From NCBI GenBank assembly GCA_963976285.1, contig CAXBJY010000005.1, positions 3,164 through 67,163 on the forward strand: a stretch of DNA of 64,000 nt, written 5' to 3'. The notes under the pieces are model-generated. The model made no database searches. It was not told the origin of the DNA and was given only the letters and a program-made list of their open reading frames with translations. Shown here in pieces: positions 33,909-52,600 of the stretch (within the stretch, counting starts at the first letter, position 1; each line of letters starts with the position of its first letter). Position numbers and translations under genes: made by a program. Source of the DNA: an uncultured Gammaproteobacteria bacterium. Lineage in GTDB: Bacteria; Pseudomonadota; Gammaproteobacteria; Ga0077536.

Positions 33909-33942
33909 TCTTTAGCCGTCGCGACCATTCCCGGAGAACCGC

Positions 33943-35034: not shown

Positions 35035-35046
35035 TTGCGAAACGGA

Positions 35047-35847: not shown

Positions 35848-36008
35848 GCCGGCCCCGGCGGTTACGAACAAGCCGGGCATGCTACGCTCGGCAGAAGCAC
35901 CGTAAGGCATAAACGATCGTCGGCGCGGCCGTGCCATAACGCGGCTGTGCACCCGTGCCGCGAACGCGCGCACGTGCGACGACGACCACAAATCAGGGGA
36001 AGCGATCC

Positions 36009-36995
36009 ATGAAACTTGCGTTATATCTGCCAAATTTCCGCGACAAGATCACCGTCGATGAAATCGATGAACTGGCCGCCGTGGCCGAAAAGCTCGATTT
36101 TGATTCGCTGTGGACGCTCGACCGTATCGTCGTGCCGGAGGCGTCCGATCGCGGTGAACTGCAAAAGCCGTTTGGCGCGATGAAGGAGTTTCCGCCGCAA
36201 CTGCCGGTCAGTTCACGCGGTGAATACCTACAGGGCCTGCCGCTCATTCCCTACCTCGCGGCGACGACGAAAAAAATCCGGCTCGGGGTCAGCATCATCG
36301 TCACGCCGTTCCGGGCCCCGGCGGTGATGGCCGCGGAAGTGGCGACCTGGGATCAATTGTCCCGGGGGCGGATCAACGTCGGGGTCGGTTCCGGCTGGAT
36401 GCCGGAGGAGTTCGACGCGGCGAGTGCGGGACATATTTACAAAAAACGCAACAAGCACGTGCGCGAAACGATCGAGGTAATGCAGGGGATCTGGGGCAAC
36501 GAAGTGTTCGAATACGATGGCGAGTTCGCGTCGTTCGCGAAATGCGGCTTCGGCGCGAAACCGGTACAGAAGCCGCGACCGCCGATGTATTTCTCCGGCC
36601 TCGTGAATCCCGAGATCGCCGCGAAACGGGTGGCGAAATACGCGCTCGACGGCTGGATTGGCATCATGGATACGCCGGACGCAATTACGACCTGGCGCGG
36701 CGCAATCGCAGAACAGCTCGACAAAATCAACAGCCCGCAAACGATCGATAAGCTCGACATCTCGAGCATGATGCCGTTCGAGATCACGCAAGAAGAAACC
36801 GATCAGACGCCGAACGGGAAACTGACTCCGACGATGGTCGGCACCGCGGCGCAGATCACCGAGAACCTGCACCGCTACAAGGAAGCCGGTATGACGATGC
36901 CGATGCTGTGGCCGCCGTTCAGCGGCACGCCGACGTCGAAAACGATCGAGGATTTGCACCAGCTGAAAGAAGACATCATGCCGCAGATCGGCTGA
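36009..36995 (+). CDS. LLM-class (luciferase-like) flavin-dependent oxidoreductase
   Basis: TIM-barrel LLM signature. AGGGGA RBS before the ATG. Confidence 0.7.
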   Translation: MKLALYLPNFRDKITVDEIDELAAVAEKLDFDSLWTLDRIVVPEASDRGELQKPFGAMKEFPPQLPVSSRGEYLQGLPLIPYLAATTKKIRLGVSIIVTPFRAPAVMAAEVATWDQLSRGRINVGVGSGWMPEEFDAASAGHIYKKRNKHVRETIEVMQGIWGNEVFEYDGEFASFAKCGFGAKPVQKPRPPMYFSGLVNPEIAAKRVAKYALDGWIGIMDTPDAITTWRGAIAEQLDKINSPQTIDKLDISSMMPFEITQEETDQTPNGKLTPTMVGTAAQITENLHRYKEAGMTMPMLWPPFSGTPTSKTIEDLHQLKEDIMPQIG

Positions 36996-37175
36996 ATTCC
37001 CCCGCGACGCCGCGTTCAGTCGATCGTTGACTTCGCCCCGCCGGCCACGCGCGCAGCCAGTGCGCGGGCCGGCGTGCCCTTGAGTTCCCGTGCGTCCGAC
37101 ACCACATAAGAAGCGAACGGTGCCGCCGCGTATCGGCGCAGGCGGTCTGCGGAATTCGCTCAAGGGAGAACTCGA

Positions 37176-37682: not shown

Positions 37683-37739
37683 ACCGCTCGCGTCCGACAG
37701 CTGTCGGACCCGACGCAAACACGTGAAGGAGAACGCCGT

Positions 37740-39548: not shown

Positions 39549-40796
39549 ATGAACGAAACGTCGAAACTGCCCGATCCCTGGACTACCCCGTTCCAGCAGA
39601 TTGATTACTCCGATCCACGGCTATTTCAGCAAGATGCGTGGCGTCCGTATTTCGAACGGCTGCGTAAGGAGTCACCGGTTCATTATCAACAGCGGAGCCC
39701 GTTTGGGCCGTTCTGGTCGATTACCCGCTTCGAAGACATCGTCGAAGTCGAGAAAAACTGGCAGGTCTTCTCGTCCTCCCCGACGATCGCTATCGGGGAG
39801 TTCAAGATGGAGGAGGGGACTGATGACATCCCGACGTTTATTGCGATGGACCCGCCGCGACACGATGTGCAGAGGAAGGCCGTGCAGCCGGCGGTCGCGC
39901 CGAAGAATCTGGCCGAAATGGAGCATTTGATCAGGCGCCGCGTTGGCGAGATGCTTGATGAACTCCCCGTTGGTGAAACTTTCGATTGGGTAGAAAAGGT
40001 ATCAATCAACCTCACAACGCAAATGCTTGCCACGCTATTCGACTTCCCGTTCGAACAACGTGACAAACTGCCCTATTGGTCAGACATGACAACCGGTACC
40101 CCGGAAATAGCCGGGGGCGACGCCGATCAGACTGAAAGAACCGCTGCGTTACAGGAGTGCCTGGCAACGTTTACCCGAATCTGGCACGAGCGGGAAGGTA
40201 CGGAAGGCGGAATGGATCTGATCAGGCTTTTGCAACGGGATCCAGATACCTCGGATCTCGTCCACTGTCCACTGGAATTCCTGGGTACCTTGTTGTTACT
40301 CATCGTCGGTGGCAACGACACGACGCGAAATTCGATCACCGGCGGTGTTGTCGCACTGAACAAGTACCCCCGTGAGTATGAAAAATTGCGTTCACAGTCG
40401 CATCTCATTCCGTCGATGGTTTCTGAAATCATTCGCTGGCAAACCCCGCTAAGCCATATGCGTCGAACGGCGACCCGGGATTATGAATTTCGCGGTCAAC
40501 AGATACGGGAAGGCGATAAAGTCGTGCTTTGGTACATCTCCGGCAATCGTGACGATTCGATCATCGATCGCGCTGACGAGTTTGTCATTGACCGTGCAAA
40601 TCCGCGACATCACCTTGCTTTCGGATTTGGCATCCATCGATGCATGGGTAATCGTCTCGCGGAAATGCAATTACGCGTGCTGTGGGAAGAAATCATGCAA
40701 CGGTTCAGTTTTGTCGAATCGGTGGGTGAACCTGCCCGGGTACGCTCAAACTTCGTTCATGGCTATACGTCTTTACCCGTAAAGCTTCACCGCTAG
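39549..40796 (+). CDS. cytochrome P450
   Basis: Heme-ligand loop FGFGIHRCMGNRLA, EIIRW K-helix ExxR, and AGNDTT I-helix. Confidence 0.85.
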   Translation: MNETSKLPDPWTTPFQQIDYSDPRLFQQDAWRPYFERLRKESPVHYQQRSPFGPFWSITRFEDIVEVEKNWQVFSSSPTIAIGEFKMEEGTDDIPTFIAMDPPRHDVQRKAVQPAVAPKNLAEMEHLIRRRVGEMLDELPVGETFDWVEKVSINLTTQMLATLFDFPFEQRDKLPYWSDMTTGTPEIAGGDADQTERTAALQECLATFTRIWHEREGTEGGMDLIRLLQRDPDTSDLVHCPLEFLGTLLLLIVGGNDTTRNSITGGVVALNKYPREYEKLRSQSHLIPSMVSEIIRWQTPLSHMRRTATRDYEFRGQQIREGDKVVLWYISGNRDDSIIDRADEFVIDRANPRHHLAFGFGIHRCMGNRLAEMQLRVLWEEIMQRFSFVESVGEPARVRSNFVHGYTSLPVKLHR

Positions 40797-40890
40797 GCAC
40801 GCATACACTTGGACGTTCTGAGTATGAAAAAAAACAGTTCGCACCGTGCTGCCAGGCGCGAGGGATATCCTGTCGGAGACTGGAATTAAC

Positions 40891-41445
40891 ATGTCATTAG
40901 TTCGCCGCACCACCTGTCTGGGGTTCACCATTGCGCTCCTCTTCCTTGTCTTGCCAGAAGTGGTTTTCGCAAAACCGAGTGTGCTGATTCTGGATTGCGC
41001 CCTGCAAGACGACACAATGCTACCCGACGTTCCTGACGAACTGGCTCGTACCGCATCCGTTGCTCCCGTGCTTCGCGCGACATTGCGGGAATTCGGCTAC
41101 ACAGTCCCGGACTATGTTGGTTCAGACGAAAATCTTGCGTTAACCGAAACCGGATATTTCCTCGCGCATCCGAAAATCGCGGCAGAATTGGGGCGCAGCC
41201 ACAATGCTGATTGGGTCGGCATCTGCACGCAGTTCAAATTCAGCTTCCTCGTATCCATTCTAAGGGTCCACCTTGTTGATGTAGCGAAGAACCAGGTAGT
41301 CACTCATGCCGAAACATGGATGCGCGGCTCGATGACGGATTTTCGCATGACCAGACGATCGACTCGCAGCCTCGGAGAGCAGGTCGACGATCTGTTACAG
41401 CAAATCACGGTCGCTGATAAACCCGCTGATGGGGCAAACAGATAA
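40891..41445 (+). CDS. secreted hypothetical protein
   Basis: Signal peptide MSLVRRTTCLGFTIALLFLVLPEVVFA. In a lower-GC patch between the two P450 genes. Confidence 0.45.
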   Translation: MSLVRRTTCLGFTIALLFLVLPEVVFAKPSVLILDCALQDDTMLPDVPDELARTASVAPVLRATLREFGYTVPDYVGSDENLALTETGYFLAHPKIAAELGRSHNADWVGICTQFKFSFLVSILRVHLVDVAKNQVVTHAETWMRGSMTDFRMTRRSTRSLGEQVDDLLQQITVADKPADGANR

Positions 41446-41700
41446 CGCCACGACGAGGCGATATCCGGGAGTAAAAGCTCCGGGTCGGCGGAAGCCGGCC
41501 AGGTAACCCGGAACAGAGCGACACCATTAAAGCTCCTGTAATACCGTGACGCGATGAGCCTCGAGCGCAACGCCCCGAGTGAGTGTTGTTCCGGTAATCC
41601 TGCCTTCCGTCCTTCAGACCCCCTGCGGCTGCTCCCAATCGTTCCAGGCGATTGGGTCGGGATCGATGTCTCCGATCAGGCAAACAGGCAAGCGTAAGCA

Positions 41701-42990
41701 TCAGGCACGGTAGCGTAGCGGTAGCCGTTCGTATCCCATCACGTGGGTTTGATGCGTTTGCACTGGCGCGCCCGCGAGCTCGATGTGTCCGAGGTACGGC
41801 AGCAACGCCTTCAGGCTCGCCTGCAGTTCGATGCGGGCGAGGTTTGTTCCGAGACAGAAATGTGTCCCGAAGCCGAACGTCAGGTGCCGGTTCGGGCTGC
41901 GCGCAATGTCGAATCGGTAGGGGTCGGGAAACACACGATCATCACGATTCGCCGAAGGGTAAAAGAGACCCACCGTATCCCCCGCGGCAATACGCGTGCC
42001 CGCCAGCACGAAGTCCTCGCGCGCCGTGCGCAGGAAACTGCCAACCGGGGAGGTCCAGCGCAGGATTTCCTCGACGGCCTGGGGGATGAGGGTTGGATCG
42101 GCGAGCAGGCGTTCGCATTCGTCAGGGTGATCGAGCAGCGCCGCAACACCGCCGCTCAGCGCGTTACGCGTGGTGTCGTTACCGGCTCCGATCAGCAGGA
42201 ACAGATAGCCGATCAGTTGCTGGTCACTCAGCAAACTGCCCTGCACCGGCGTATGCACCATGTGATCGATGACCCCGCCGCGCGCCGCCCCGTGCTCACG
42301 GCTTTCGGTGATGAGCGCCTCGATGTAGGTACGCATTTCATACATCGCCCGGTAGGTGGTTGCGCCGCGACTCTCTTCGGGTCGACGATAGTCCGGGTCG
42401 ATGTCACCCACGAGCGCTTCGGACCACACGAGGATGCGTTTCCAGTCGTCGGGTTCGAGGCCGAGGATGTCACCGATGGCGGCGAGTGGCAGTTTGCACG
42501 CAAGCTCGTGTACGAAATCCAGGGGCTTGGGACTGCGCTCGAGCCGGGCCATGTAGTCATCCGTGAATTCGGTCGCCAACCGTTCGAATTCCGCTCGCAT
42601 GCGGCGCATCGCACCCTGGGTGAACGCCCAGCTCGTCAGGCGGCGCATATGCCGGTGGCGCGGGTTGTCCATGAAAACCATGTCGGGCGGCTCGTCCGGA
42701 TCCCAGCCGCGTTCACGGCAGAATTCATCCATGCCGGCACGCACGGGTTCCGGCTTGCCGCGCAAGGTCAGGCGCAGGCGTGGGCCGCCATTGATGAAAA
42801 CATCCGGGTGGTTGGAAACCGTCACGACGTCGGCATAACGGGTTACGGCCCAGAACGGCTCCACGTCGTCGCGCTCGTACCAGAAGACCGGCGCCTGTTC
42901 GCGCAGCAGATCCCATGCCGCCCACGGATAGCCGTTCGCGGCGTAGTCGGCGGGGTGGTGGATCCTGAGATTGTCGAGCGTCACCGTCAT
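41701..42990 (-). CDS. cytochrome P450
   Basis: FGFGTHFCLGTNLA heme loop, EEILRW, AGNDTT. Start chosen at the ATG 8 nt after the SCO-like stop; the ORF track extends to 43080 but would overlap the SCO gene. Confidence 0.85.
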   Translation of the reverse strand: MTVTLDNLRIHHPADYAANGYPWAAWDLLREQAPVFWYERDDVEPFWAVTRYADVVTVSNHPDVFINGGPRLRLTLRGKPEPVRAGMDEFCRERGWDPDEPPDMVFMDNPRHRHMRRLTSWAFTQGAMRRMRAEFERLATEFTDDYMARLERSPKPLDFVHELACKLPLAAIGDILGLEPDDWKRILVWSEALVGDIDPDYRRPEESRGATTYRAMYEMRTYIEALITESREHGAARGGVIDHMVHTPVQGSLLSDQQLIGYLFLLIGAGNDTTRNALSGGVAALLDHPDECERLLADPTLIPQAVEEILRWTSPVGSFLRTAREDFVLAGTRIAAGDTVGLFYPSANRDDRVFPDPYRFDIARSPNRHLTFGFGTHFCLGTNLARIELQASLKALLPYLGHIELAGAPVQTHQTHVMGYERLPLRYRA

Positions 42991-42998
42991 CGGTTGAA

Positions 42999-43499
42999 TC
43001 ACGATGACACAAGTCGCTGTTTCAAATCGGAGCTGATCTCGTCTTCGCTCCTCGTTTCGGCCCAGTGGGTTACGTAGCACCCATCGGGACCAATCAGGTA
43101 GGCGAATGACGTATGCGGGACGGCGTAGCCATCGGGATCATCCGGGTCCGGTTTGCGTTGCGCGAAGATCCTGAACGCACCTTTCGCCGCCTCGACCTGT
43201 TCGGGCGAACCGGTCAGGCCGGTAAAACGCGGATACCTGTGCTCGAGGTATTGCTTCATGACGTCCGGACGGTCGCGTTCCGGATCGACCGAGATGTAGA
43301 GCGGTTGCAGCGCCGCCGAGAGTTGCGCCGGCAGCGAGTCGAGAACCCGGGTCAGGCGACTCAGCGAACGCGGGCAAACCACGCGGCAGTGGGTAAAGCC
43401 GAAATACACAAGCAGCCACAGCCCGGTATACGTCGCTTCGGTGACCGCGAGGCCATCGTGGTCAACCAGATTGAACGTGGGCCTGCCGATACCCGCCAT
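42999..43499 (-). CDS. SCO1/SenC family thioredoxin-fold protein (no N-terminal anchor)
   Basis: CxxxC copper-binding motif in YFGFTHCRVVCP with the distal His in PHTSFAYLIGPDG. No TM or signal segment is in frame upstream. Confidence 0.6.
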   Translation of the reverse strand: MAGIGRPTFNLVDHDGLAVTEATYTGLWLLVYFGFTHCRVVCPRSLSRLTRVLDSLPAQLSAALQPLYISVDPERDRPDVMKQYLEHRYPRFTGLTGSPEQVEAAKGAFRIFAQRKPDPDDPDGYAVPHTSFAYLIGPDGCYVTHWAETRSEDEISSDLKQRLVSS

Positions 43500-43521
43500 C
43501 GTTCGCCGCCAGCGACCGCGT

Positions 43522-45102
43522 TCAGGACCAGCTCAACGAATAAGAGCCGATCTTCTGTCGCGGCATCGAGAGCTGTAGCGCGTCGTCCGTCAGCACGACG
43601 CCGAATGCTTCGTTCGCAAGCACCCGGCCGTCCCTGCCCGAACCGATTTCAACGCCGTCCAGCGACAGTTTCCAGGCCTCGCGCCGCGGCCCATTGACGT
43701 TCTCGATACGCAATTTTGCATCGCCGGCGCCGTCCGCCCGTGCCGCGAGTGTAAAACGCATGTCCTGCGCCCCGGCATCATAGCGGGCTTCCAGTACGTC
43801 GACGTTGGCCGACACTTTGGTGATCAACGGTTCCCCGAAATGATCGCTGGTCCACGGTCGAGTGTAGAATTCGCGCAATCCGTTAGCGACGTTAAGACGC
43901 GCATACGGTAGCAATGCATTCGTTGTAATGGGTTCTACCTGGCGCAGAATCCCGTCTTCGTCGTAGCGCGTGTCGTTGCGCGGATAGTACAGTCCGCCAT
44001 TCGGCCAGGTCGGGTTCATGTAGCGATCGGCGTGGCTCAACAGCCCCGACAACGTCGCTTCGTCGCCAAGCTCTGAAGCAGCCGCCGCGGCCCAGCCAAA
44101 ATCGGCCGTATCGATGGTCTCCATCGAACCGCGTAGATCGATGGGCTCCCACAGCCGGATAGCGCACGTTCCGTCCGGGCCTGGAATCAGGAATTCTTCG
44201 AGTTGGCCGGGGTAGGTATTGCGTACGTGTTCCGGATTCCACGCATGCATTAATGCCGCCAACCAGGCGTCTGACCACAGCCACGGCAATGCATTCGGTA
44301 TGGGTGTGCGACTGTCGTGCGCGATGTTTACGATCGAGTGACCGTTTTCACCGGTCAGGCCAAATTCGTCCCAGGCTTTTAGATAACCCTCGGTAACTTC
44401 GTCCGCCCGGGACGTTCCCTTGATAAAATCCTCGCAGCGAAACGCGAGAATCGACGGTTGATTGCAAACCTGGAAAATACAGTTGGGTTCGCAAGCCACC
44501 CCCAGATATCCGTTCTCGACCATCTGCCAGTAGATGGTTTCGCTCAGACTTTCTTCGTCATACTCGAACACCATGTTTTCGCCGAACGTGAACGGGTTGA
44601 TCGACATCGTCAACGCGCCCTTCGCGGTGTAACGGTCATCGTCGAACAGATAATGGTACAGCCGGGTCAGCAACATCAGATAAGCGCTGTACATGATGTT
44701 GTCTTTCTTCACGGGATCCCACTGCCCGGGTAATTTCCCCCAGAGATGGGCGTTTCCATTCGGCGCGCCGGCCTGGCTCACGTACTGCCAGTAAACCCAC
44801 ACGCCGGGAAGCAATAGCTTGTGGATGAGTTTCTCGAAGATCGGTTTGAACACGCCCGGCGCGTTGGGCAGTCGATGGTAGTGGCCGAGCGCGAGCGCAA
44901 GCCCCGCGAAAGCAAGCTGGAACCGGAAGGCGCCGAAGTCTTCCTGCAGGCCGGAGCGGCCCCCCATCATGGCCCATTCGCCGTCTGGCTGACTGACGAT
45001 ATTCTCGATCTGCCGAATGCTGCCGATCTGCTTCGCATCGAGGCAGTTCCCGGATACCCGGTTGGCCGTATTTGACAGTGGCGTCGCTGGTAACGTGTTC
45101 AT
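43522..45102 (-). CDS. linalool dehydratase/isomerase (Ldi) family protein
   Basis: Blocks DNIMYSAYLMLLTRLY and CEPNCIFQVCNQP are shared with the paralogue at 56243 (NVMYSGWY, CEPNWIYPLCNNQ...RLHDRLHGTHY). They resemble my recollection of Castellaniella Ldi motifs (ENIMYKGHL, CEPDNYFVQCNS, DRLHGTDY). Confidence 0.5.
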   Translation of the reverse strand: MNTLPATPLSNTANRVSGNCLDAKQIGSIRQIENIVSQPDGEWAMMGGRSGLQEDFGAFRFQLAFAGLALALGHYHRLPNAPGVFKPIFEKLIHKLLLPGVWVYWQYVSQAGAPNGNAHLWGKLPGQWDPVKKDNIMYSAYLMLLTRLYHYLFDDDRYTAKGALTMSINPFTFGENMVFEYDEESLSETIYWQMVENGYLGVACEPNCIFQVCNQPSILAFRCEDFIKGTSRADEVTEGYLKAWDEFGLTGENGHSIVNIAHDSRTPIPNALPWLWSDAWLAALMHAWNPEHVRNTYPGQLEEFLIPGPDGTCAIRLWEPIDLRGSMETIDTADFGWAAAAASELGDEATLSGLLSHADRYMNPTWPNGGLYYPRNDTRYDEDGILRQVEPITTNALLPYARLNVANGLREFYTRPWTSDHFGEPLITKVSANVDVLEARYDAGAQDMRFTLAARADGAGDAKLRIENVNGPRREAWKLSLDGVEIGSGRDGRVLANEAFGVVLTDDALQLSMPRQKIGSYSLSWS

Positions 45103-45208
45103 TTTGATGACCTCCCGCTGGTCGCCAACGAACGGTCGACGCAGCGTGTTGGGCGCGAAGTGCGGAACTTCGCGCGACGAATGTGAACTCCCCGGCCTGC
45201 GACGCCGC

Positions 45209-45892
45209 TCACGATTGATTGTCTTCGAGTGAACGCGTGGTGAGGCGGTCGAGATCCGGCAACGGCTGGTTGATGATGCTCGTCGCCTGCGCCCCGGAGA
45301 CCCCCAGTGCCCTGAGTAGCAGCTTGCACACGGCAGCGGAATAACCGTTCGGCCGCCGCTCGCAAAGAATGCGGTGCAACGCGCCGCGGATGGTACTGAC
45401 GGTCAGGTCGTTGGCCGCCACGATATCCTCGAACCGGAATTCACCGTTCTCGAGGCCCGCTTCGAGCACGGGTTGCGGGAAACTCAGGAGTTCCTCGTTC
45501 AGTGTCTCTTCGCTGCCCGACATGGAATACACGACCCAGCCCCACACTTCGTCTCGCTCCGCAACCTCGAGTACCAGCCGGGTCGTCGCGATCAGTCGTT
45601 CGGCCGGCGACGCGATCGATGCGCACGCACTCTGAATTGCCAGAAACGGATCGTGACCGATGTACGTCCAGAGATCCTCGACGAGTTCACTAACGGTTCG
45701 GTAGTAATTGTAGAACGTGCCACGCGCTACCCCTGCCGCCCGGACAAAATCGTCGATCGTCGCTTTTTTCTCACCATGCTCCGCAAGCACCCTCGCGGCA
45801 GCAGTGAGTAGTCGCATCCTGGTTCGTTCGCGACGTTCAAGGCCGATCTCCTTGCGGCGCGCCAGGTTCAAATCCGCCACGGTCGTCGTCAT
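45209..45892 (-). CDS. TetR/AcrR family transcriptional regulator
   Basis: N-terminal HTH (ATIDDFVRAAGVARGTFYNYY). The ORF extends to 45994, but an ATG 34 codons in is the likely start. Confidence 0.75.
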   Translation of the reverse strand: MTTTVADLNLARRKEIGLERRERTRMRLLTAAARVLAEHGEKKATIDDFVRAAGVARGTFYNYYRTVSELVEDLWTYIGHDPFLAIQSACASIASPAERLIATTRLVLEVAERDEVWGWVVYSMSGSEETLNEELLSFPQPVLEAGLENGEFRFEDIVAANDLTVSTIRGALHRILCERRPNGYSAAVCKLLLRALGVSGAQATSIINQPLPDLDRLTTRSLEDNQS

Positions 45893-46033
45893 TTCCGGTT
45901 TAGCCAGCAACGCAAGTTCAAATCGCGCACCATAATTTATCCGCTGCAGGTATCGGGAAGCGTGTCGGGCCGGGCGATCGCCCGTCGACGGCATGTCGCG
46001 CGACCCGCACTAGCCGGAGGTAACCGCCGTTGC

Positions 46034-47131
46034 TTACGCTGCCGCGAGCGTTTTACCGCCGAGCTTACGCAGCTCGGGCGCAACTTTCTCGCCGATCAGG
46101 CGCAGGCTGTCGGCGACCATGTCGAACGGCATGCCGGCATAGGACATGGCCATCACCGGACGGAGTTCGCCGCTCATCTCGTAGCGCCGGGTCCACTTCT
46201 CGACGATCTGCTCCGGCGTGCCCCAGATCTGGCGGTCCGCAAACGTTTCGCACGCCGCTTCGAGGCCGCTTTCGCGGATCGTTGCCGCACTCACTTCGTA
46301 GGCCTGATAGCCGTTCGTGTCGCTCCAGTGGGAGCCGTCAAAATCGTAGTGGCGGATGACGCTGAGGTAATACTTTGAAAGATACTCCCGCGCCACCTTT
46401 TCGGCCACCGCCGGGTCTTCGTGACAATACGTGAAGTCGGCGACCACCGGGGCTCCCGGCGGCTTCGCCGGATGGACTTCCTCGAACCGTGCGCGCCAGG
46501 CCTCGATCGCGGCATTGTGCTGATCCCATGGCAGCTGCACGAACGTCATCATCGTGCCACCGATGTTCGCGGCCGCCATCGCCGAGTCCGGTGTCATCGC
46601 AACGGAGAAAAAGCCGCGGTCGCGGTAGCCGAACTCGGGCTTCGGCGTCACCGTCGTGCGGGATTGCTTGAAGAATTTTGTGTCGTATTCGGCAACACCG
46701 GTCTCGAGGATGTCGAGAATGATTTCCGCAGCCTCGTCAAAGCGTTCCCGCGACGTCGCCATGTCGATGCCGAAAGCGCGGTATTCCTCGCGCGCGAGTC
46801 CGCGGCCGAAACCCAGCAGAAAACGCTCGCCCAGGATGACCTGCAACAGGCTGATACGCTCGGCGACGCGCGTCGGGTTTTCATGCCAGGGCAGAATGAT
46901 GGCCCCGGCACCGAGCTTGATACGGTTCGTCTTGCCGGCGAGATAGGCGAGCCACTGGAGGTTGTCCGGCATCATCGAATAATTCGGGTTGAAGTGATGC
47001 TCCGGCAGCATCAGAAAATCCATGCCGACTTGTTCCGCAAGCAGTGCGATTTCGGTTTCCTTGCGCAGCATTTCCGCGTCGGACAGTCCGTCATGGGCAT
47101 TCTGCAGGATGGATAGCATGCCAATTTCCAT
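46034..47131 (-). CDS. LLM-class (luciferase-like) flavin-dependent monooxygenase
   Basis: 365 aa TIM-barrel LLM pattern (MDFLMLPEHHF, ILPWHENPTRVAERI). Confidence 0.75.
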   Translation of the reverse strand: MEIGMLSILQNAHDGLSDAEMLRKETEIALLAEQVGMDFLMLPEHHFNPNYSMMPDNLQWLAYLAGKTNRIKLGAGAIILPWHENPTRVAERISLLQVILGERFLLGFGRGLAREEYRAFGIDMATSRERFDEAAEIILDILETGVAEYDTKFFKQSRTTVTPKPEFGYRDRGFFSVAMTPDSAMAAANIGGTMMTFVQLPWDQHNAAIEAWRARFEEVHPAKPPGAPVVADFTYCHEDPAVAEKVAREYLSKYYLSVIRHYDFDGSHWSDTNGYQAYEVSAATIRESGLEAACETFADRQIWGTPEQIVEKWTRRYEMSGELRPVMAMSYAGMPFDMVADSLRLIGEKVAPELRKLGGKTLAAA

Positions 47132-47934
47132 CGGTCGGTTCCTCTCGGCTGAATAGTTTGTCCGGCGATCGGGTCAGCCGGGGTGGCCACTAGAACAAAC
47201 TATACAAAAAATGTCAATTTGGATTAATTATGTGTATTTTTCAGCGACCGCGGAAGAATGCCTGTCGCTGATACCGAACGGAAACGTCCGGTAACCCGTT
47301 GAAGACGCCGTACCGAGCCGGCACCACGCCCGTCATCGGCGAGCCACCGGACAACATCGCCTGGAGCGATTGGGTCGGGATCCAAATAGCGCAATCAGCA
47401 GGATTGCCGCCTGGCACAGCCGCACGCTGCCGCGAAGCGCTCCGGTACAGGGCGGCAGCCGATGAGACCGATCCGGCGTGGCACCGCCGGCGATGCGGAT
47501 CATCGCGTGCACCGAGGATTCCGACGTCATCGAGACGCCTGCAGGGAGGCAGGCGGCGTACCCGCAATCCGACCCACAGCGCACATCGCGCGGGACGTTG
47601 CGCCGCCAGAGATTGCGGACGCGCGCACCGGATAAGGATTGAAGCCGGCGATAGTCTGGCAACGTGTCCGGGGCACAGCGTGCGGCGGTGACGGTCCTCG
47701 CGGCAACCCGCTCACCCGCAACCATCGCGGGGAGTCATTCCCGTTTCCGCCGCCACGCCGCCGCCTGTGGCGACAGCCACACTTGCCGGGCCGGGTGGAC
47801 TACGAGTCGCCCGTTGCCTCGACCGGCGCGGCTCGTGCGCGTCCGCGATCGAACAACGTGGCGTTCGCGAACCGACGGTGCGCCGGTTCGGATGTCCCGT
47901 GCCGGGGAATTCGCCAAACCGCTGGCATCAACTT

Positions 47935-47988
47935 GCTGAATAGTAGTTATTGTTCGTTCAATCTGGACTTAATGAATTGAACAAACTA
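47935..47988 (+). promoter_or_regulatory. marR promoter/operator region: GCTGAATAGT-N34-GAACAAACTA module with an embedded imperfect palindrome
   Basis: The module is duplicated at 47148-47202 upstream of the divergent LLM gene. Palindrome TTGTTCGTTCAAT-N13-ATTGAACAAAC. Confidence 0.3.
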
Positions 47989-47999
47989 AAATTCGCCGT

Positions 48000-48479
48000 A
48001 TGAACGAACCTGCAGCACAAGTCATTGAAACGTTCGTGGAGCGCCTCGGCGTCGTCGCGCAAGGCGATGGCCTGCCGCGCATCGCGGGCCGGATCATGGC
48101 GTATCTCGTGATCCATGGGGGGCCGGTGCGCAGTGGCGAACTCGCCGAGGAGCTCCGTGTATCGCGCGCCAGCATTTCCACGAACAGTCGCCTGTTGGAG
48201 AGTCTCGGCGTGATCGAACGGGTCACCCGACCGGGCGAGCGTCAGGACTATTTCCAGTTACGCAGCGATCCCTATGTCGAAATGCTGCACGGCTACGCGA
48301 GCCGCCTGCAGAAAGCACAGGCAGCCGTCGCCGAGGCCCGCGAAAATCTCGATCCGGACGAATGGGGTGAGGCGCTGGCCCGCCTCGGTGAGCTCGGTAA
48401 ATTCTATGACGACATGAGCGACCTGCTCGAAACGATGATCGAACGCGGTCACGGTTCCGGCAATCAGACGAAACGATGA
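48000..48479 (+). CDS. MarR/GbsR-like winged-helix transcriptional regulator
   Basis: wHTH segment (GPVRSGELAEELRVSRASISTNSRLLESLGVIERV). Overlaps the adaptor start (ATGA). Confidence 0.6.
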   Translation: MNEPAAQVIETFVERLGVVAQGDGLPRIAGRIMAYLVIHGGPVRSGELAEELRVSRASISTNSRLLESLGVIERVTRPGERQDYFQLRSDPYVEMLHGYASRLQKAQAAVAEARENLDPDEWGEALARLGELGKFYDDMSDLLETMIERGHGSGNQTKR

Positions 48480-49627
48480 AGCGTTCCTATCTCATATCCC
48501 TGGGGATCGTCCTGGCGATTACGATCTGGATGCTCGCCGGCCGGCTGAGCCCGGACGCGCGCGACCCGGTCGCAACAACGGCACGAAGTACGGAAACAGC
48601 GGCTATGACGGTCGCCGTGGAAACAAAAACGGCCCGCGATATCGTGCGCTACATCGTCGCGCACGGGCATGTCGAACCACACCGCGTGGTCACGGTTCGC
48701 GCGGAAACCGCCGGCAGAATTAGCGCGCTCGGTGCCGAAGAAGGCGAGCGCGTGCGCGCCGGCAATGTGCTCGCGACGATTGCCGACGATGATCGAACGG
48801 CACAATTGAAGAAGGCCAAAGCGCGCGTAACCGAACGGCGGCAAGCGCACGAACGTGTGAAACGCCTTGCTAAAAAGGGCTACCAGGCGGAAAGCCAGTT
48901 CGACGAAACGCTGGCGGAACTCACGATCGCGGAAGCGGAGCTGGACGAAATCCGGATTGATATTGAAAAAACCGCAATCCGCGCACCGTTCGACGGCACA
49001 CTCGAACTGCGCGACGTCGAGTTTGGCGACTATGTCGAAGTGAGCGGTGAAATAGCGACAATCGTCGATAACAACCCGCTCATTGTCGCGGTACGGATCG
49101 CACAACACGACATCCGGCGGATCACCTTGTCCGACTCCGTCGATGTCGTTTTCGCCACCGGTGAAACCGCAACCGGCACCGTCAGCTACATCGCGCCGCG
49201 CGCGGAGCAGGCGACCCGCACGTTCCGCATCGAAATCGAAGTACCGAATCCGCAAGCCACAATCCGTTCAGGCATGAGCGCCGAGGCACGCATCCCGACC
49301 GGGACGGTATCCGCGCAGTTCGTTTCTTCCGCTCTGCTCAGTCTCGACGCCGGCGGTGCCATCGGTATCAAGACGGTCGACGACGATAACGTGGTGGTAT
49401 TTCATCCGATCGACATCGTCATGTCGGAGAAAAACGGTATCTGGGTCAGCGGCTTGCCCGAAGTCGCCCGTGTCATCGCGGTTGGTCACGGTTTCGTCTC
49501 GCAGGGGCAGCTGGTTCGGGTGAGCGCGGAAAATCGTGATTCCGGCGGTGAGTTCGCGGTTCCCGCGCGTGATGATGCCGCGAAAATCGTATCGCGCCTG
49601 AACGGCGACCCGGTTCATTCGTTGTAA
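48476..49627 (+). CDS. efflux RND transporter periplasmic adaptor subunit
   Basis: N-terminal anchor, coiled-coil hairpin and beta-barrel domains. Start overlaps the marR stop. Confidence 0.8.
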   Translation: MKRSYLISLGIVLAITIWMLAGRLSPDARDPVATTARSTETAAMTVAVETKTARDIVRYIVAHGHVEPHRVVTVRAETAGRISALGAEEGERVRAGNVLATIADDDRTAQLKKAKARVTERRQAHERVKRLAKKGYQAESQFDETLAELTIAEAELDEIRIDIEKTAIRAPFDGTLELRDVEFGDYVEVSGEIATIVDNNPLIVAVRIAQHDIRRITLSDSVDVVFATGETATGTVSYIAPRAEQATRTFRIEIEVPNPQATIRSGMSAEARIPTGTVSAQFVSSALLSLDAGGAIGIKTVDDDNVVVFHPIDIVMSEKNGIWVSGLPEVARVIAVGHGFVSQGQLVRVSAENRDSGGEFAVPARDDAAKIVSRLNGDPVHSL

Positions 49628-52600
49628 TGCACGGGATCATCGACGCTGCGTTTTCGCGCGCACGCATGGTCGTGCTCACGTTTTGCATCGTCATGCTCAT
49701 GGGGATGGCGGCCTATCTCGCCATACCGAAAGAGTCCGAGCCGGATGTTCCGATCCCGACCATCTATGTCTCGATGACGCACGAAGGGATCGCGCCCGCC
49801 GATGCGGAACGTCTACTCGTGCGCCCGATGGAAAAAGAGCTCCAGGCAATCGAAGGCGTCAAGGAAATGCGCTCTGTCGCCGGTGAGGGGCATGCGTCGG
49901 TTACGCTCGAATTCGATGCGGGTTTCGATGCCGACCAGGCATTGCTGGACGTACGCGAAAAAGTCGATCTCGCACGCCCCGAGTTGCCGCCGGATACGGA
50001 TGAACCGCGGGTCAACGAGATCAATGTCGCCTTGTTTCCGGTATTGACCGTCGTTCTCGCCGGCACCGCGCCCGAGCGGACGCTCGTCGATGTTGCGCGC
50101 GACCTGAAAGATTCGCTCGAAGCGTTGTCGGGAGTGCTTGAAGTCGATATCGGCGGCGACCGCGAAGAGGTGCTGGAAGTTATTGCGTCTCCGGAGGTGC
50201 TGGAAACCTACGATATTGCGTTCGGCGATCTGTTTAATCTGATCACGCGCAACAACCGGCTCGTAGCCGCCGGGGCGCTCGATACCGGCGCCGGGCGCAT
50301 GGTCCTGAAAGTGCCGGGCGTGATCGAGGAGCTCGACGACATCCTGCAGCTCCCGGTAAAGGTTGTCGACGATACCGTCGTGTTGTTCCGGGATGTTGCG
50401 ACGGTACGGCGAACGTTCAAGGACCCGCTCGGCTTCGCCCGGGTAGGGGGCCAGCCGGCAGTCGTGCTCGAGGTGAAGAAACGTATCGGCGCCAACATTA
50501 TCGAAACCATCGCCGAGGTGCGTGCGATCGTTGAGTCCGAACGGTTGCTGTGGCCCGCGGGGATTTCCGTGAGCTACCTGCAGGACGGCTCGCGACGCAT
50601 ACGCGACATGCTTGGCGACCTCGAGAACAATCTGCTGACCGGCATCATCATGGTCATGGTCGTTATCATCGCGGCGCTCGGCTTGCGTCCCGGCATCCTC
50701 GTTGGCCTGGCGATCCCGGGTTCGTTCCTGGCCGCGATACTCCTGTTGTACATGATGGGTTACACGCTGAACATCGTCGTCCTGTTCGCGCTGATCCTGA
50801 CGCTTGGCATGCTTGTCGATGGCGCAATCGTCACGATAGAACTCGCCGACCGCAAATTGATCGAAGGTGAATCGCGGGGCGAAGCTTACGCGAATGCCGC
50901 GAAACGCATGTTCTGGCCGGTAACGGCATCGATCGGGACGACCCTGGCGGTGTTTCTGCCGTTGATCGCGTGGCCCGGCATGATCGGCGGATTCATGAAG
51001 TATCTCCCGATCACGGTGTTGATCACGCTCACGGCATCGCTCGCCATGGCGCTCATATTCATTCCGGTCCTCGGTGGCCTGTTCGGCAGCGCGCAGGGCA
51101 GTTCCAGTGTCCCGGCCGCGGTGCACGCGGCGGAAAGCGGTGATCTCGATTCTATCGACGGCTTCAGTGGCGCGTATCTGCGGACACTCGGCGCACTGCT
51201 GCGGCACCCGGCGAAGATATTCATCGTCGCGCTCATATGCCTCGTCGGCACTTACGCCGCCTACACGCTGTTTGGCCGCGGGGTGGAATTCATGCCGGAA
51301 GTCGAACCGGAAGTCGCCCAGGTCCAGGTCCAGGCGCGGGGTGACCTGTCGATCCATGAACGTGACGCACTCGTGCGCACAGTCGAACAACGTCTGCTTG
51401 ACGTCGACGGCATCAAGACCGTCTACGCCCGCACGCTGGGCGACGGTAGCAGCGGTCTCATGATGGAGACGCCGGTCGATGCGATTGGCATCATCCAGCT
51501 TGAATTCGTACCGTGGCGCCAGCGTCGACCGGCCGCCGAGATCATCGCGGAGCTACGCGATCGCACCGCCGGCATTCCCGGCATCATGATCCAGGTTCGC
51601 AAGCAGGAACAGGGTATGTCGCAGGGCAAGCCCATCCAGTTGCAGATCACGTCGCGCGACTCGAGCAGGGTTGCACCGGCCGTTGGCCAAATCCGGGAGT
51701 TGCTCGAACAACTCGGCGGTTTTATCGACATTCAGGACAGCCGACCGCTGCCAGGTATCGAATGGCAGGTTATTGTCGATCGCGAACAAGCCGCGCGTTA
51801 CGGCGCCGACATCACGCTGCTCGGCGATACGGTCAAAATGATCACGACCGGCATGCAACTCGCGGAATTTCGCCCCGACGATGCCGACGAGGAGCTCGAT
51901 ATCCGTCTGCGGTTTCCCCCGGGAGAGCGAAATTTCGAACGCCTGGACCATTTACGCGTACCCACCGCGCAGGGCCAGATCCCGATCAGTAATTTCATCA
52001 CGTTCAAACCCGCGCAGAAGACCGGCAGCCTGCACCGCATCGACGGCCGTTCATCGCTGGAAGTTCTCGCCGACGTCGAGGAAGGCCTGCTGGCGGACGA
52101 TCAGGTGAAGAAAATCAAGGCTGCGTTGCCGACGGCCGGGCTCGATCCGGCCGTCACCGTCAGGTTCAAGGGCCAGGACGAGGACCAGCGCGAAGCCATG
52201 GTGTTTCTGATCACCGCTTTTATCACCGCGCTCTTTTTTATGCTCGTGATCCTCGTTACCCAGTTCAACAGTTTCTACGAGGCATTTCTCGTGTTGAGCG
52301 CGATCGTTTTCTCCACCGCCGGTGTGCTCCTCGGGATGCTGCTGACACACCAGCCGTTCGGCATTGTCATGGGCGGGCTCGGGGTCATCGCGCTGGCCGG
52401 GATCGTCGTCAATAACAACATCGTGCTGATCGATACGTTCAACGATCTGAAACGTCGCGGGATCGCACCGCGCGAAGCGATCCTGCGCACCGCGGCTCAG
52501 CGACTGCGGCCCATCCTGCTGACGTCGATCACGACGGTGCTCGGGCTCATGCCGATGGTGTTCTCGTTGACGATTGATCTGGTCGGGCAGGATATTTCGG

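What the first reader, a model, noticed from the sequence alone, without database searches (positions are those of the whole stretch)
39549..47131. Terpenoid-style oxidative island: two P450s, an Ldi-family protein, an anchor-less SCO-like protein, TetR and an LLM monooxygenase
Two cytochrome P450 genes in divergent orientation flank a small secreted protein in a visibly lower-GC patch. Downstream, on the same strand as the second P450, lie a cytoplasmic SCO1-like CxxxC protein, a linalool dehydratase/isomerase-family protein, a TetR regulator and a luciferase-like monooxygenase. With the MarR-RND efflux operon next door, this resembles solvent or monoterpene alcohol catabolic islands. The exact substrate is unknown.
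Basis: partly seen in the sequence, partly recalled or inferred. Interest (0 to 1): 0.55.

Follow-up and report, generated by a model that had tools for sequence, protein, structure and literature searches.

The report
Ldi-like enzyme with its own SCO partner
The gene island is real and looks like a breakdown pathway for an oily alcohol or hydrocarbon, but its most interesting part is a widely conserved, unstudied pair: a linalool-dehydratase-like enzyme that almost always travels with its own cytoplasmic copy of a "copper-chaperone" protein.

Summary
All seven genes are present as described, with two corrections. The P450s are convergent, not divergent, and the SCO/Ldi/TetR/LLM genes lie upstream of the second P450 in one minus-strand operon: LLM-TetR-Ldi-like-SCO-P450B.

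P450A is a CYP153-type hydroxylase. It sits with a secreted DUF3280 protein in a compositionally foreign cassette. P450B is closest to CYP125/124/142/108.

The conserved core is Ldi-like plus anchor-less SCO, not the P450s.
- SCO follows the Ldi-like gene in 25 of 35 genomic loci across several phyla.
- 43 of 48 metagenomic loci with this SCO type have an Ldi-like gene directly upstream.
- One natural SCO-Ldi fusion protein exists.

The Ldi-like protein is cytoplasmic and only about 18-25% identical to Castellaniella Ldi. It keeps Ldi's catalytic cysteine pair and adds an invariant third cysteine (C-x3-C-x4-C). That third cysteine tracks with SCO presence (57/63 versus 2/9).

The SCO keeps all three copper ligands. 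I found no publication on this pair.

Best reading: an aerobic catabolic operon for an allylic or isoprenoid alcohol, in which SCO services the enzyme's cysteine site, either by keeping it reduced or by delivering Cu(I). The substrate is unknown. A second, membrane-anchored Ldi-family gene lies 9 kb away.

The parts
46034..47131 (-). Luciferase-like flavin monooxygenase (LLM, 365 aa), first gene of the minus-strand operon
   Evidence: Pfam Bac_luciferase E 2e-51. No NCBIfam subfamily reaches its cutoff. Only weak similarity to luciferase alpha chains in the PDB. Conserved with TetR-Ldi-SCO in L001 and L121 only.
45209..45892 (-). TetR-family regulator (227 aa as called; the ORF extends to 45994)
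   Evidence: Pfam TetR_N + TetR_C_40. Gene call of 227 aa. Homologous TetR genes lie next to the Ldi-like gene in L001, L012, L013, L045, L046, L051, L057 and L121.
43522..45102 (-). Cytoplasmic Ldi-family protein (526 aa): an (alpha/alpha)6 barrel plus a C-terminal beta domain, with an invariant C204-E-P-x-C208-x4-C213 motif
   Evidence: Pfam Ldi E 3e-103, residues 60-378. AF2 pLDDT 90.8, beta strands at 426-525. Foldseek best hits are the Ldi structures. The Cys triad is invariant in 120 homologs. No hydrophobic segment.
42999..43499 (-). Anchor-less SCO1/SenC-type protein (166 aa) with C38-x3-C42 and H129; starts 22 nt after the Ldi-like stop codon
   Evidence: Pfam SCO1-SenC E 3e-42. E 3e-37 to human SCO2/SCO1 structures, with the CxxxC and His aligned. 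These ligands are invariant in 21 Ldi-linked homologs. Linked to Ldi-like genes in 25/35 genomic and 43/48 metagenomic loci. Natural fusion P0136.
41701..42990 (-). P450B (429 aa), last gene of the operon, starting 8 nt after the SCO stop codon; related to CYP125/124/142/108
   Evidence: Pfam p450. PDB matches: CYP125 ancestor 1.5e-83, CYP124 8e-61, P450terp 1e-57. The same LLM-TetR-Ldi-SCO-P450 order occurs in L121. Absent from L001.
40891..41445 (+). Small secreted DUF3280 protein (184 aa as called; the ORF starts at 40846)
   Evidence: Pfam DUF3280 E 1e-10. N-terminal hydrophobic segment at residues 3-21. GC3 0.59.
39549..40796 (+). P450A, a CYP153-type terminal hydroxylase in a low-GC3 cassette
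   Evidence: E 2.4e-154 (517 bits) to CYP153A structures 5fyf and 3rwl. GC3 0.61 against 0.75-0.81 for most genes in the window. No ferredoxin or ferredoxin reductase family was returned by any Pfam scan of the window.
47154..47202 (.). Operator-like inverted repeat TAGTTTGTCC-N29-GAACAAACTA, 23-71 nt upstream of the LLM start, next to a conserved TTGACA
   Evidence: Motif search: 3 of the 4 matches in the window lie in 47.15-47.99 kb, against 1.0 expected for the whole window. Sequence read directly. Partly conserved in L001 but not in L121.
47947..47991 (.). Inverted repeat overlapping the promoter-like site of the MarR-RND operon; it contains the same GAACAAACTA motif
48000..52794 (+). MarR regulator (48000-48479), membrane-fusion protein (48476-49627) and RND pump (49627-52794)
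   Evidence: Pfam MarR_2, HlyD_D23 and ACR_tran.
56243..58171 (+). Second Ldi-family protein (642 aa) with hydrophobic N-terminal segments and motif CEPNW-x4-C (no third Cys, no SCO neighbour). Flanked by AraC (53759-54655, -), SDR (54741-55736, +) and enoyl-CoA hydratase (58569-59366, +)
   Evidence: Pfam Ldi E 4e-83, residues 226-526. Sequence. Four hydrophobic peaks within residues 29-147. 25% identical to the 526-aa paralog. Neighbouring genes.
33943..36995 (+). Upstream catabolic genes: Zn-alcohol dehydrogenase (33943-35034), enoyl-CoA hydratase (35035-35847) and a second LLM (35955-36995)
   Evidence: Pfam. Gene calls on the same DNA.

Best explanation
The region is an aerobic catabolic operon for a hydrophobic alkenol or isoprenoid-type compound, probably under TetR control. 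Its order is LLM-TetR-Ldi-like-SCO-P450B. It sits next to an acquired CYP153 + DUF3280 cassette and a MarR-RND efflux operon.

The functional core is a two-protein unit.
- The cytoplasmic Ldi-family (alpha/alpha)6-barrel enzyme uses a cysteine-based active site: C204 and C213 match Ldi's catalytic pair, and C208 is added. I infer that it hydrates, dehydrates or 1,3-isomerises an allylic or tertiary alcohol or alkene. The product would be a primary alcohol that ADH, ALDH and acyl-CoA ligase can carry on.
- The anchor-less SCO protein is the enzyme's dedicated partner and acts on that cysteine site. My preferred mechanism is that it works as a thioredoxin-fold thiol:disulfide reductase. It would keep or restore the catalytic cysteines in the reduced state inside O2-respiring cells, with C208 as a possible resolving cysteine.

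P450B and the LLM supply or consume oxygenated intermediates.

What is shown: gene content, operon layout, the family and fold assignments, the Ldi-SCO linkage, the fusion protein, and the conserved residues.

What is inferred: the reaction type, the substrate class, and what SCO does chemically.
For: The unit is real.
- SCO lies next to the Ldi-like gene in 25 of 35 genomic loci from Actinomycetota, Alpha-, Beta- and Gammaproteobacteria and Binatota.
- The reverse also holds. Of 48 metagenomic loci with an SCO at least 44% identical and enough upstream DNA, 43 have an Ldi-like gene directly upstream on the same strand. None of 10 more distant SCOs do, and 9 of those 10 carry a membrane anchor.
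- Stop and start codons overlap in Rhodococcus and Mycobacterium.
- P0136 is a natural SCO-Ldi fusion with no signal peptide.

The cysteine site.
- Ldi's C170/C179 align with C204/C213.
- C204, C208 and C213 are invariant in 120 homologs.
- The third Cys tracks SCO adjacency: 57/63 versus 2/9, Fisher p = 4e-5, not corrected for phylogeny.

The reductase reading.
- Both characterised family members need a reductant.
- Ldi's C170/C179 'must be kept in a reduced state', and Ldi is O2-sensitive and purified cofactor-free (PMC6600392; PMC4791888).
- The SCO-linked clade occurs in operons with O2-dependent enzymes: P450, Rieske oxygenases and LLM.

The catabolic logic.
- Zn-ADH, ALDH and AMP-ligase genes flank the pair in Streptomyces, Sphingomonas, Sphingobium, Rhodococcus, Mycobacterium and a marine contig.
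- Adjacent regulators include TetR, a MimR_N-domain regulator and LuxR.
- The window also holds a Lis-like paralog, Zn-ADH, enoyl-CoA hydratases and a thiolase.
Against: - No experiment exists for any member of this clade.
- Similarity to Ldi is remote (18% identity in structural alignment, about 25% over the core). Ldi's His128/129 is Tyr141 here.
- A reducing cytoplasm already has thioredoxin systems, so a private reductase is not obviously needed.
- The SCO keeps the distal His and the full Cu-ligand set, which a pure reductase would not need.
- SCO-less Ldi-family proteins exist in aerobes, including the Lis-like paralog in this same window.
- Two SCO-linked enzymes lack the third Cys (L127, L086). 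Five Amycolatopsis loci have the triad but no adjacent SCO.
- ADH, ALDH and ligase genes are near only 7-9 of 35 loci, and these are common families.
- P450B and the LLM are conserved only in the nearest relatives.
Confidence: 0.4

Rival explanations
1. Copper enzyme. The anchor-less SCO is a true cytoplasmic Cu(I) chaperone. It loads a Cu(I)-thiolate site (Cys3, or Cys2His in some clades) in the Ldi-like barrel, and the metal binds or activates the C=C or allyl group of the substrate.
For: - C38, C42 and H129, the three Cu ligands of SCO1, are invariant in all Ldi-linked SCOs and in the fusion. Sco1-like chaperones bind Cu(I) through two Cys and a distal His (PMC7558416).
- Some homologs carry Cys-rich tails: N-terminal CCCGG in L016, L092 and L094, and C-terminal RCCG in L025.
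- The enzyme gained an invariant third Cys, giving C-x3-C-x4-C, beside invariant Met137 and Glu205. This Cys co-varies with SCO.
- The best structural matches after Ldi are GH127 enzymes. From memory, these hold a Zn-Cys3-Glu site in an (alpha/alpha)6 barrel.
- Also from memory: the one well-established client site of SCO, CuA, is also a C-x3-C motif, and Cu(I) binds alkenes in the plant ethylene receptor.
Against: - Ldi is purified cofactor-free, and Ldi and Lis work by cysteine acid/base chemistry without metal (PMC6600392).
- No CopZ/HMA gene lies in the window or in any of the loci searched. I did not look for other copper-handling genes.
- Bacteria are thought to avoid cytosolic copper use (PMC5171941).
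- Two SCO-linked enzymes lack the third Cys.
- I had no 3-D coordinates to test whether the three Cys converge.
Confidence: 0.3
2. Structural subunit. SCO is a permanent, non-catalytic subunit or cap of the Ldi-like enzyme. It would replace the neighbouring protomer and the disulfide cap that close the active site in pentameric periplasmic Ldi. Its CxxxC/His would be vestigial or regulatory, for example a redox or metal switch.
For: - The fusion protein and the translationally coupled gene pairs suggest a stable 1:1 complex.
- Ldi's active site lies at a subunit interface and is capped by the C48-C101 disulfide (PMC6600392). This clade has no other conserved Cys.
Against: Vestigial residues would not stay invariant across phyla. 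I could obtain no model of the complex: AF2 of the fusion from a single sequence failed.
Confidence: 0.15
3. Loose neighbourhood. The seven genes are a chance adjacency of unrelated oxidoreductases, or a tailoring set for a secondary metabolite, rather than one pathway. The terpenoid reading is an artefact of the Pfam family name.
For: - The close relative L001 shares only LLM-TetR-Ldi-SCO, in a different genomic context.
- P450A/DUF3280 are compositionally foreign and convergent to the operon.
- A hopanoid-type gene cluster lies about 20 kb away.
Against: - Intergenic gaps of 8-106 nt on one strand, and the identical five-gene order in L121, argue for an operon.
- The Pfam scans of the window's larger ORFs returned no terpene synthase, PKS or NRPS family.
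- A shared GAACAAACTA motif at the LLM and MarR promoters hints at co-regulation.
Confidence: 0.15

Closest known systems
Linalool dehydratase/isomerase (Ldi/LinD) of Castellaniella defragrans (PDB 5hlr, 5g1u, 5i3t)
   Same: - Same Pfam family and the same (alpha/alpha)6-barrel fold.
- The catalytic Cys pair is conserved (C170/C179 = C204/C213), as is Met124 = Met137.
- In several relatives the genes nearby are ADH and ALDH, which parallels Ldi > GeoA > GeoB.
   Different: - Only about 18-25% identity.
- No signal peptide, so cytoplasmic rather than periplasmic.
- No C48-C101 pair.
- His128/129 is replaced by Tyr141.
- An extra invariant Cys208.
- An extra C-terminal beta domain of about 100 aa.
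- An obligate SCO partner.
- Found in aerobes, beside oxygenase genes.
Linalool isomerase (Lis) of Thauera linaloolentis 47Lol
   Same: - A cytoplasm-facing Ldi-like domain that needs a reductant (PMC4791888).
- The window's second Ldi-family gene (642 aa, hydrophobic N-terminus) matches Lis's published architecture of 644 aa with four N-terminal TM helices.
   Different: - The 526-aa protein is soluble, has the third Cys and pairs with SCO.
- The Lis-like paralog has Trp at the third-Cys position and no SCO neighbour.
- I could not compare sequences with Lis directly, because its sequence is not in the tools.
SCO1/SenC/PrrC assembly factors of cytochrome c oxidase (CuA site)
   Same: - Same fold and strong sequence similarity (E 3e-37 to human SCO2).
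- Same CxxxC + His ligand set.
- From memory: Sco proteins act either as Cu donors or as thiol:disulfide reductases of the C-x3-C CuA site, for example Thermus Sco1. Both roles fit a Cys-rich client.
   Different: - No membrane anchor or signal peptide.
- The genes are linked to, and in one case fused with, an Ldi-family enzyme rather than to cox genes.
GH127 beta-L-arabinofuranosidases (HypBA1, Ara127N)
   Same: - The next-best structural neighbours after Ldi: an (alpha/alpha)6 barrel plus beta domains.
- From memory: their active site holds a Cys3-Glu metal (Zn) site with a Cys nucleophile. That is a precedent for a Cys-triad metal site in this fold.
   Different: - The match is very weak (TM about 0.27, 12-13% identity).
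- The motif positions differ.
- Nothing in the gene context points to carbohydrates.
CYP153 alkane/terminal hydroxylase operons
   Same: P450A is a close relative of structurally solved CYP153A enzymes (E 2e-154).
   Different: - No ferredoxin or ferredoxin reductase family was found anywhere in the window.
- Paired instead with a secreted DUF3280 protein.
- Foreign codon composition.

Membership tests
Ldi family (Pfam PF18566; type enzyme Castellaniella Ldi) | Profile match above the curated threshold | tested here: met
   346 bits against a cutoff of 26.1, residues 60-378 covering model positions 1-317 of 318.
Ldi family (Pfam PF18566; type enzyme Castellaniella Ldi) | (alpha/alpha)6-barrel fold superimposable on the Ldi structures | tested here: met
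   AF2 pLDDT 90.8. The top 27 Foldseek hits are all Ldi chains, E 2e-15, target TM 0.70-0.78.
Ldi family (Pfam PF18566; type enzyme Castellaniella Ldi) | Catalytic cysteine pair (C170/C179, or C171/C180 in the other numbering) | tested here: met
   Aligned to C204 and C213. Invariant in 120 homologs.
Ldi family (Pfam PF18566; type enzyme Castellaniella Ldi) | Active-site His128/129 | tested here: not met
   Aligned residue is Tyr141. Among Cys3-type homologs it is Tyr in 52 and His in 11.
Ldi family (Pfam PF18566; type enzyme Castellaniella Ldi) | Sec signal peptide, periplasmic location, C48-C101 capping disulfide | tested here: not met
   No hydrophobic N-terminal segment. No conserved Cys other than the triad. 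These features of Ldi are described in PMC6600392.
Ldi family (Pfam PF18566; type enzyme Castellaniella Ldi) | Linalool/geraniol/myrcene dehydratase-isomerase activity | not testable with these tools
   Needs an enzyme assay.
Lis-type membrane-anchored linalool isomerase (applies to the second gene, 56243-58171) | About 644 aa, four N-terminal TM helices, cytosolic Ldi-like domain | tested here: met
   642 aa with the Ldi domain at 226-526. Four hydrophobic peaks within residues 29-147: two strong, two weaker. Published Lis features from PMC4791888. I could not make a direct sequence comparison with Lis.
SCO1/SenC copper chaperones | Thioredoxin-like SCO domain | tested here: met
   Pfam 144 bits. 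E 3e-37 to 1e-35 against SCO2 and SCO1 structures over the whole length.
SCO1/SenC copper chaperones | CxxxC motif plus distal His (the Cu ligands) | tested here: met
   C38, C42 and H129 align with the SCO1/2 ligands. Invariant in Ldi-linked homologs.
SCO1/SenC copper chaperones | Membrane anchor or lipoprotein signal; extracytoplasmic location | tested here: not met
   The ORF cannot extend upstream, because one search lists each ORF from the first start codon after a stop. No hydrophobic segment. Homologs start at the fold itself. More distant SCOs in the same scan do carry anchors.
SCO1/SenC copper chaperones | Genomic or functional link to cytochrome oxidase / CuA biogenesis | tested here: not met
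   The neighbour is an Ldi-like gene in 43/48 and 25/35 loci. The Pfam scans of the window's ORFs returned no cytochrome oxidase family.
SCO1/SenC copper chaperones | Cu(I)/Cu(II) binding and transfer | not testable with these tools
   Needs metal analysis.
CYP153 terminal hydroxylases (P450A) | Close sequence similarity to CYP153A enzymes and a haem-thiolate motif | tested here: met
   E 2.4e-154 to 5fyf and 3.5e-152 to CYP153A7 (3rwl). The FGFGIHRCMG motif is in the sequence.
CYP153 terminal hydroxylases (P450A) | Operon with ferredoxin and ferredoxin reductase (class I partners; typical arrangement, from memory) | tested here: not met
   The Pfam scans of the window's ORFs returned no Fer2 or reductase family.
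Acyclic terpene utilisation (Atu/Liu-type) island | Geranyl-CoA / methylcrotonyl-CoA carboxylase subunits nearby | tested here: not met
   No biotin carboxylase or carboxyltransferase family was returned. Only enoyl-CoA hydratases, a thiolase, ADH and SDR were found.

The most novel reading that the evidence does not exclude
The Ldi-like/SCO pair is a widespread cytoplasmic bacterial copper enzyme system. A soluble SCO chaperone inserts Cu(I) into a Cys3 (or Cys2His) site of an (alpha/alpha)6-barrel enzyme. The metal then binds the alkene or allyl group for hydration or isomerisation. This would be a new catalytic use of copper, a new client for SCO proteins, and an exception to the view that bacteria keep copper enzymes out of the cytosol.
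Probability: 0.27. Interest if true: 0.88.

Novelty: new variant of a known kind. Interest (0 to 1): 0.62.

Why it matters
1. Only two Ldi-family enzymes have been characterised, and both come from denitrifying monoterpene degraders. A 2019 paper still called Lis the only sequence notably similar to Ldi. This search finds a family of at least 753 clusters at 50% identity. Its largest soluble clade, found in aerobes, has a different active-site make-up. Water addition to unactivated alkenes and 1,3-shifts of allylic alcohols are sought-after biocatalytic reactions. Oxygen-tolerant cytoplasmic versions would therefore be useful.

2. SCO proteins are known as extracytoplasmic assembly factors for cytochrome oxidase. 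A soluble clade that is dedicated to, and once fused with, a catabolic enzyme is an unexpected second job.

3. If the partner delivers copper, the pair gives a direct, testable case for the debated question of whether bacteria use copper enzymes in the cytosol. If it is a private disulfide reductase, it shows how oxygen-sensitive cysteine enzymes were adapted to aerobic life.

4. For annotation: 'SCO1/SenC' next to 'Ldi domain protein' should not be read as respiratory-chain biogenesis.

Tried and rejected
- Megablast of the 7.9-kb island against plasmids found only about 80-nt P450 fragments in Rhodococcus plasmids. There is no sign of a known plasmid island.
- Literature searches for Ldi with SCO1, PF18566, Ldi-like or Ldi homolog, and for Sco with cytoplasmic or genomic context, found nothing on this pair.
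- NCBIfam gave no named subfamily for the Ldi-like, SCO, DUF3280 or LLM proteins.
- AF2 of the natural SCO-Ldi fusion P0136 was run from a single sequence and failed (pLDDT 34, pTM 0.25). It gave no information on how the two domains dock.
- A CopZ/HMA search in the window and in the loci searched found nothing.
- I prepared a bulk Pfam census of about 150 neighbouring proteins but dropped it, because the sequence list was too long to pass on. I used clustering plus tblastn counts instead.
- I first thought the third Cys and SCO co-vary perfectly. Wider sampling found two exceptions, L127 and L086, so I softened the claim.
- The long minus-strand ORFs at 33820-36033 and 36228-38063 have no family hits. 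Real plus-strand genes overlap them, so I rejected them as genes.
- There are no Rfam hits in 38-59.5 kb. Promoter and terminator scans were no better than shuffled sequence.
- I considered a LadA-type alkane monooxygenase identity for the LLM. None of the six chains listed at E <= 1e-10 is described as an alkane monooxygenase.

Full report
**What is there**

- P450A: 39549-40796 (+).
- A DUF3280 protein with an N-terminal hydrophobic signal-like segment: 40846/40891-41445 (+).
- P450B: 41701-42990/43080 (-).
- An SCO1/SenC protein: 42999-43499 (-).
- An Ldi-family protein: 43522-45102 (-).
- TetR: 45209-45892/45994 (-).
- A luciferase-like monooxygenase (LLM): 46034-47131 (-).
- MarR, membrane-fusion protein and RND pump: 48000-52794 (+).

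Independent gene calls on identical DNA from Tara Oceans and other marine assemblies agree. They give the shorter starts: P450B 429 aa, TetR 227 aa, DUF3280 184 aa.

The low-GC patch is real. It comes from P450A and DUF3280, whose GC3 is 0.61 and 0.59 against 0.75-0.81 for most genes in the window.

Two details in the finding are wrong. The two P450s are convergent, not divergent. On the minus strand the order is LLM, TetR, Ldi-like, SCO, P450B with gaps of 39, 106, 22 and 8 nt, which is one operon ending in P450B.

The host is an uncultured marine gammaproteobacterium. Its DXS protein is 94% identical to one found on a 5,845,834-bp contig, the same length as MAG chromosome OZ244144.1.

**What is conserved and what is not**

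A scan of one genome per species with the Ldi-like protein returned 32 loci. The only gene that recurs next to it across phyla is the SCO-like gene, usually directly downstream. Adding loci from other look-ups, SCO is adjacent in 25 of 35 loci.

The nearest MAG shares 4.2 kb at 84.5% nucleotide identity. That stretch covers exactly LLM-TetR-Ldi-SCO and nothing beyond it, and the MAG has no P450 there. Another relative, 84% identical in the Ldi-like protein, has the same five genes including P450B, followed by an MMPL-type transporter. The seven-gene 'island' is therefore a local assembly around a conserved two-gene core.

**The pairing holds in both directions**

I scanned metagenomes with an alignment of the Ldi-linked SCOs.
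- Of 48 loci with an SCO at least 44% identical to the window's and at least 600 nt of upstream DNA, 43 have an Ldi-like gene directly upstream on the same strand.
- Ten more distant SCOs (43% identity or less) have none, and nine of these carry a hydrophobic N-terminal anchor.
- The Ldi-linked SCOs begin right at the thioredoxin fold.
- In Rhodococcus aetherivorans and Mycobacterium triplex the stop and start codons overlap.
- An exhaustive search of 1.84 billion representative proteins found 753 family members at E <= 0.001. One of them, P0136 (705 aa), is a natural fusion of an SCO domain and an Ldi-like domain, with no signal peptide.

Together these results show that the two proteins work together in the cytoplasm.

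**The enzyme**

Similarity to Castellaniella Ldi is remote by sequence: E 1e-10 for the single sequence and 3e-13 for the family profile, over the central region only. It is clear by fold. The AF2 model has pLDDT 90.8, and its top Foldseek hits are all Ldi chains with target TM-scores of 0.70-0.78 and 18% identity.

- Ldi's catalytic cysteines C170/C179 align with C204/C213, and Met124 aligns with Met137.
- His128 is Tyr141 here.
- A third cysteine, C208, replaces Ldi's Asn. The motif C-E-P-x-C-x4-C-N is invariant in 120 homologs down to 46% identity.
- There is no signal peptide, and no counterpart of Ldi's C48-C101 disulfide.
- A C-terminal beta domain of about 100 residues is added.

Across the wider family the position of the third Cys varies: Cys 21, Ala 15, Leu 14, Met 4, Trp 3 and others, among 75 representatives that carry the motif.

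Presence of the third Cys goes with an adjacent SCO in 57 of 63 cases, against 2 of 9 without it (Fisher p = 4e-5, not corrected for shared ancestry). The exceptions are five Amycolatopsis loci and one Sphingobium locus where SCO lies 1.7 kb away. In the other direction, two SCO-linked enzymes carry Leu or Glu at that position.

**The partner**

The SCO protein matches human SCO2 and SCO1 along its whole length (E 3e-37). C38-x3-C42 and His129 are the residues that bind copper in Sco1-type chaperones (PMC7558416). They are invariant in the Ldi-linked clade and present in the fusion. A few homologs add cysteine-rich tails: CCCGG at the N-terminus and RCCG at the C-terminus. A CopZ/HMA search found nothing nearby.

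**Function**

The published enzymes of this family, Ldi and the membrane-anchored Lis, interconvert a tertiary and a primary allylic alcohol, and Ldi also dehydrates. Both need a reductant. Ldi's catalytic cysteines must stay reduced, and Ldi is oxygen-sensitive and purified cofactor-free (PMC6600392; PMC4791888).

Near the pair in unrelated bacteria I repeatedly find Zn-alcohol dehydrogenase, aldehyde dehydrogenase and acyl-CoA ligase genes. I also find Rieske oxygenases and small-molecule regulators: TetR, a MimR_N-domain regulator and LuxR. That is the gene set expected downstream of an enzyme that makes a primary alcohol.

In the window the operon adds two enzymes.
- P450B is closest to CYP125/124/142 and P450terp.
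- The LLM cannot be assigned to a subfamily.

The surroundings add more.
- A Zn-ADH, two enoyl-CoA hydratases, a thiolase and a second LLM.
- A MarR-RND efflux operon.
- A second Ldi-family gene at 56243-58171 with the size and N-terminal hydrophobic segments reported for Lis. This paralog has Trp in place of the third Cys and no SCO neighbour.

P450A is a CYP153-type hydroxylase (E 2e-154). No ferredoxin or reductase family turned up in the window's Pfam scans.

A motif, GAACAAACTA, forms an inverted repeat 23-71 nt upstream of the LLM start and recurs in the inverted repeat at the MarR promoter. Three of its four matches in the window lie here, against about one expected for the whole window. 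This hints at shared control. The motif is only partly conserved in relatives.

**How it most likely works**

I am confident that Ldi-like and SCO form a dedicated cytoplasmic unit (about 0.9). I am reasonably confident that the operon is catabolic for a hydrophobic alkenol or isoprenoid-like compound (about 0.6). What SCO does is inferred.

- **Thiol:disulfide reductase (preferred, about 0.4).** SCO would keep the cysteine active site reduced in oxygen-respiring cells. The family's chemistry depends on reduced cysteines. The characterised SCO-less enzymes come from denitrifying cultures and are oxygen-sensitive. The SCO-linked clade lives in aerobes, beside oxygenase genes.
- **Cu(I) delivery to a Cys3 or Cys2His site (about 0.3).** This is favoured by the fully retained ligand set, the Cys-rich tails and the gained third cysteine. 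It is disfavoured by the metal-free chemistry of Ldi and the lack of other copper genes.
- **Structural-subunit role, or the seven genes are not one pathway (about 0.15 each).** These remain possible. They answer different questions from the two above, so the four figures are not meant to add up to one.

**Comparison with what is known, and novelty**

The island's components all belong to known families. The Pfam scans returned no Atu/Liu carboxylase-type family, and the enzyme fails two defining features of Ldi proper (His128, periplasmic location).

The new element is the conserved pairing of a cytoplasmic SCO with a distinct Cys-triad clade of Ldi-family enzymes. I found no paper that mentions it. 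I class it as a new variant of known kinds. It would become a new kind of copper enzyme only if the copper model is confirmed.

Noticed in passing
window 56243-58171 (+), with 53759-54655 (-), 54741-55736 (+), 58569-59366 (+): A second Ldi-family gene (642 aa). It has four N-terminal hydrophobic segments and motif CEPNW-x4-C, which is the architecture reported for Thauera linalool isomerase. It is flanked by AraC, SDR and enoyl-CoA hydratase genes.
   Followed up: partly
protein P0136; no window coordinates: A natural 705-aa fusion of an anchor-less SCO domain (N-terminal) and a Cys-triad Ldi-like domain (C-terminal). Its source contig and organism were not looked up.
   Followed up: partly
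L016 about 11400-11620; L092 and L094 upstream of the SCO match; L025 C-terminus: Some Ldi-linked SCO homologs carry cysteine-rich tails: N-terminal '...CCCGG...' and C-terminal '...RCCG'. L092 and L094 are among the few loci of this SCO clade with no Ldi-like gene upstream.
   Followed up: no
L037 7277-9004; L039/L040 10082-11710: In Rhodococcus aetherivorans and Mycobacterium triplex the Ldi-SCO pair is followed by a regulator with MimR_N, AAA-lid and HTH_8 domains, and then by ALDH, Zn-ADH and acyl-CoA ligase genes. The Pfam domain is named after MimR, which from memory regulates propane/acetone monooxygenase genes. This may point to small ketone or alcohol inducers.
   Followed up: no
window 47132-47999: An 868-nt stretch with no convincing gene lies between the LLM start and MarR. 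It is GC-rich in the middle and AT-rich at both ends. It carries the GAACAAACTA motif three times, once with a mismatch, and has no Rfam match.
   Followed up: partly
window 33820-36033 (-) and 36228-38063 (-): Two very long minus-strand ORFs (737 and 611 aa) have no family hits. They overlap real plus-strand genes: Zn-ADH, enoyl-CoA hydratase, LLM, HSP20 and a sulfotransferase. They are shadow ORFs of a GC-rich genome.
   Followed up: yes
window about 2900-20500: A hopanoid-type biosynthesis neighbourhood. It contains a radical-SAM/DUF3463 protein (4106-5236), a GT2 (2945-4057), DXS (5575-7476), an MMPL transporter (15648-18260), a PNP_UDP_1 protein (18266-18988), squalene/phytoene synthase (19011-20474) and an epimerase (14070-15137). 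It is interrupted by a phosphonate set: a PEP mutase fused to a nucleotidyltransferase (9743-11398), a TPP decarboxylase-like gene (8572-9726) and an aminotransferase (7499-8575).
   Followed up: no
window 39549-41445: The CYP153 gene has no ferredoxin or reductase partner in the window. It is paired with a secreted DUF3280 protein. Both have foreign codon composition, and I did not check whether CYP153-DUF3280 is a recurrent cassette.
   Followed up: no
window 25046-25396 (-) and 61671-62213 (-): A Rap1a-type immunity protein, and a RES-domain protein that may be a toxin-antitoxin toxin. Neither is related to the island.
   Followed up: no
L006-L010, L027 (Amycolatopsis), about 11370-12900: In Amycolatopsis the Cys-triad Ldi-like gene is followed by a gene of about 480-515 aa in place of SCO. 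By eye its sequence looks like a PLP-dependent glutamate decarboxylase, but I did not scan it. Whether an anchor-less SCO lies elsewhere in these genomes is unknown.
   Followed up: no
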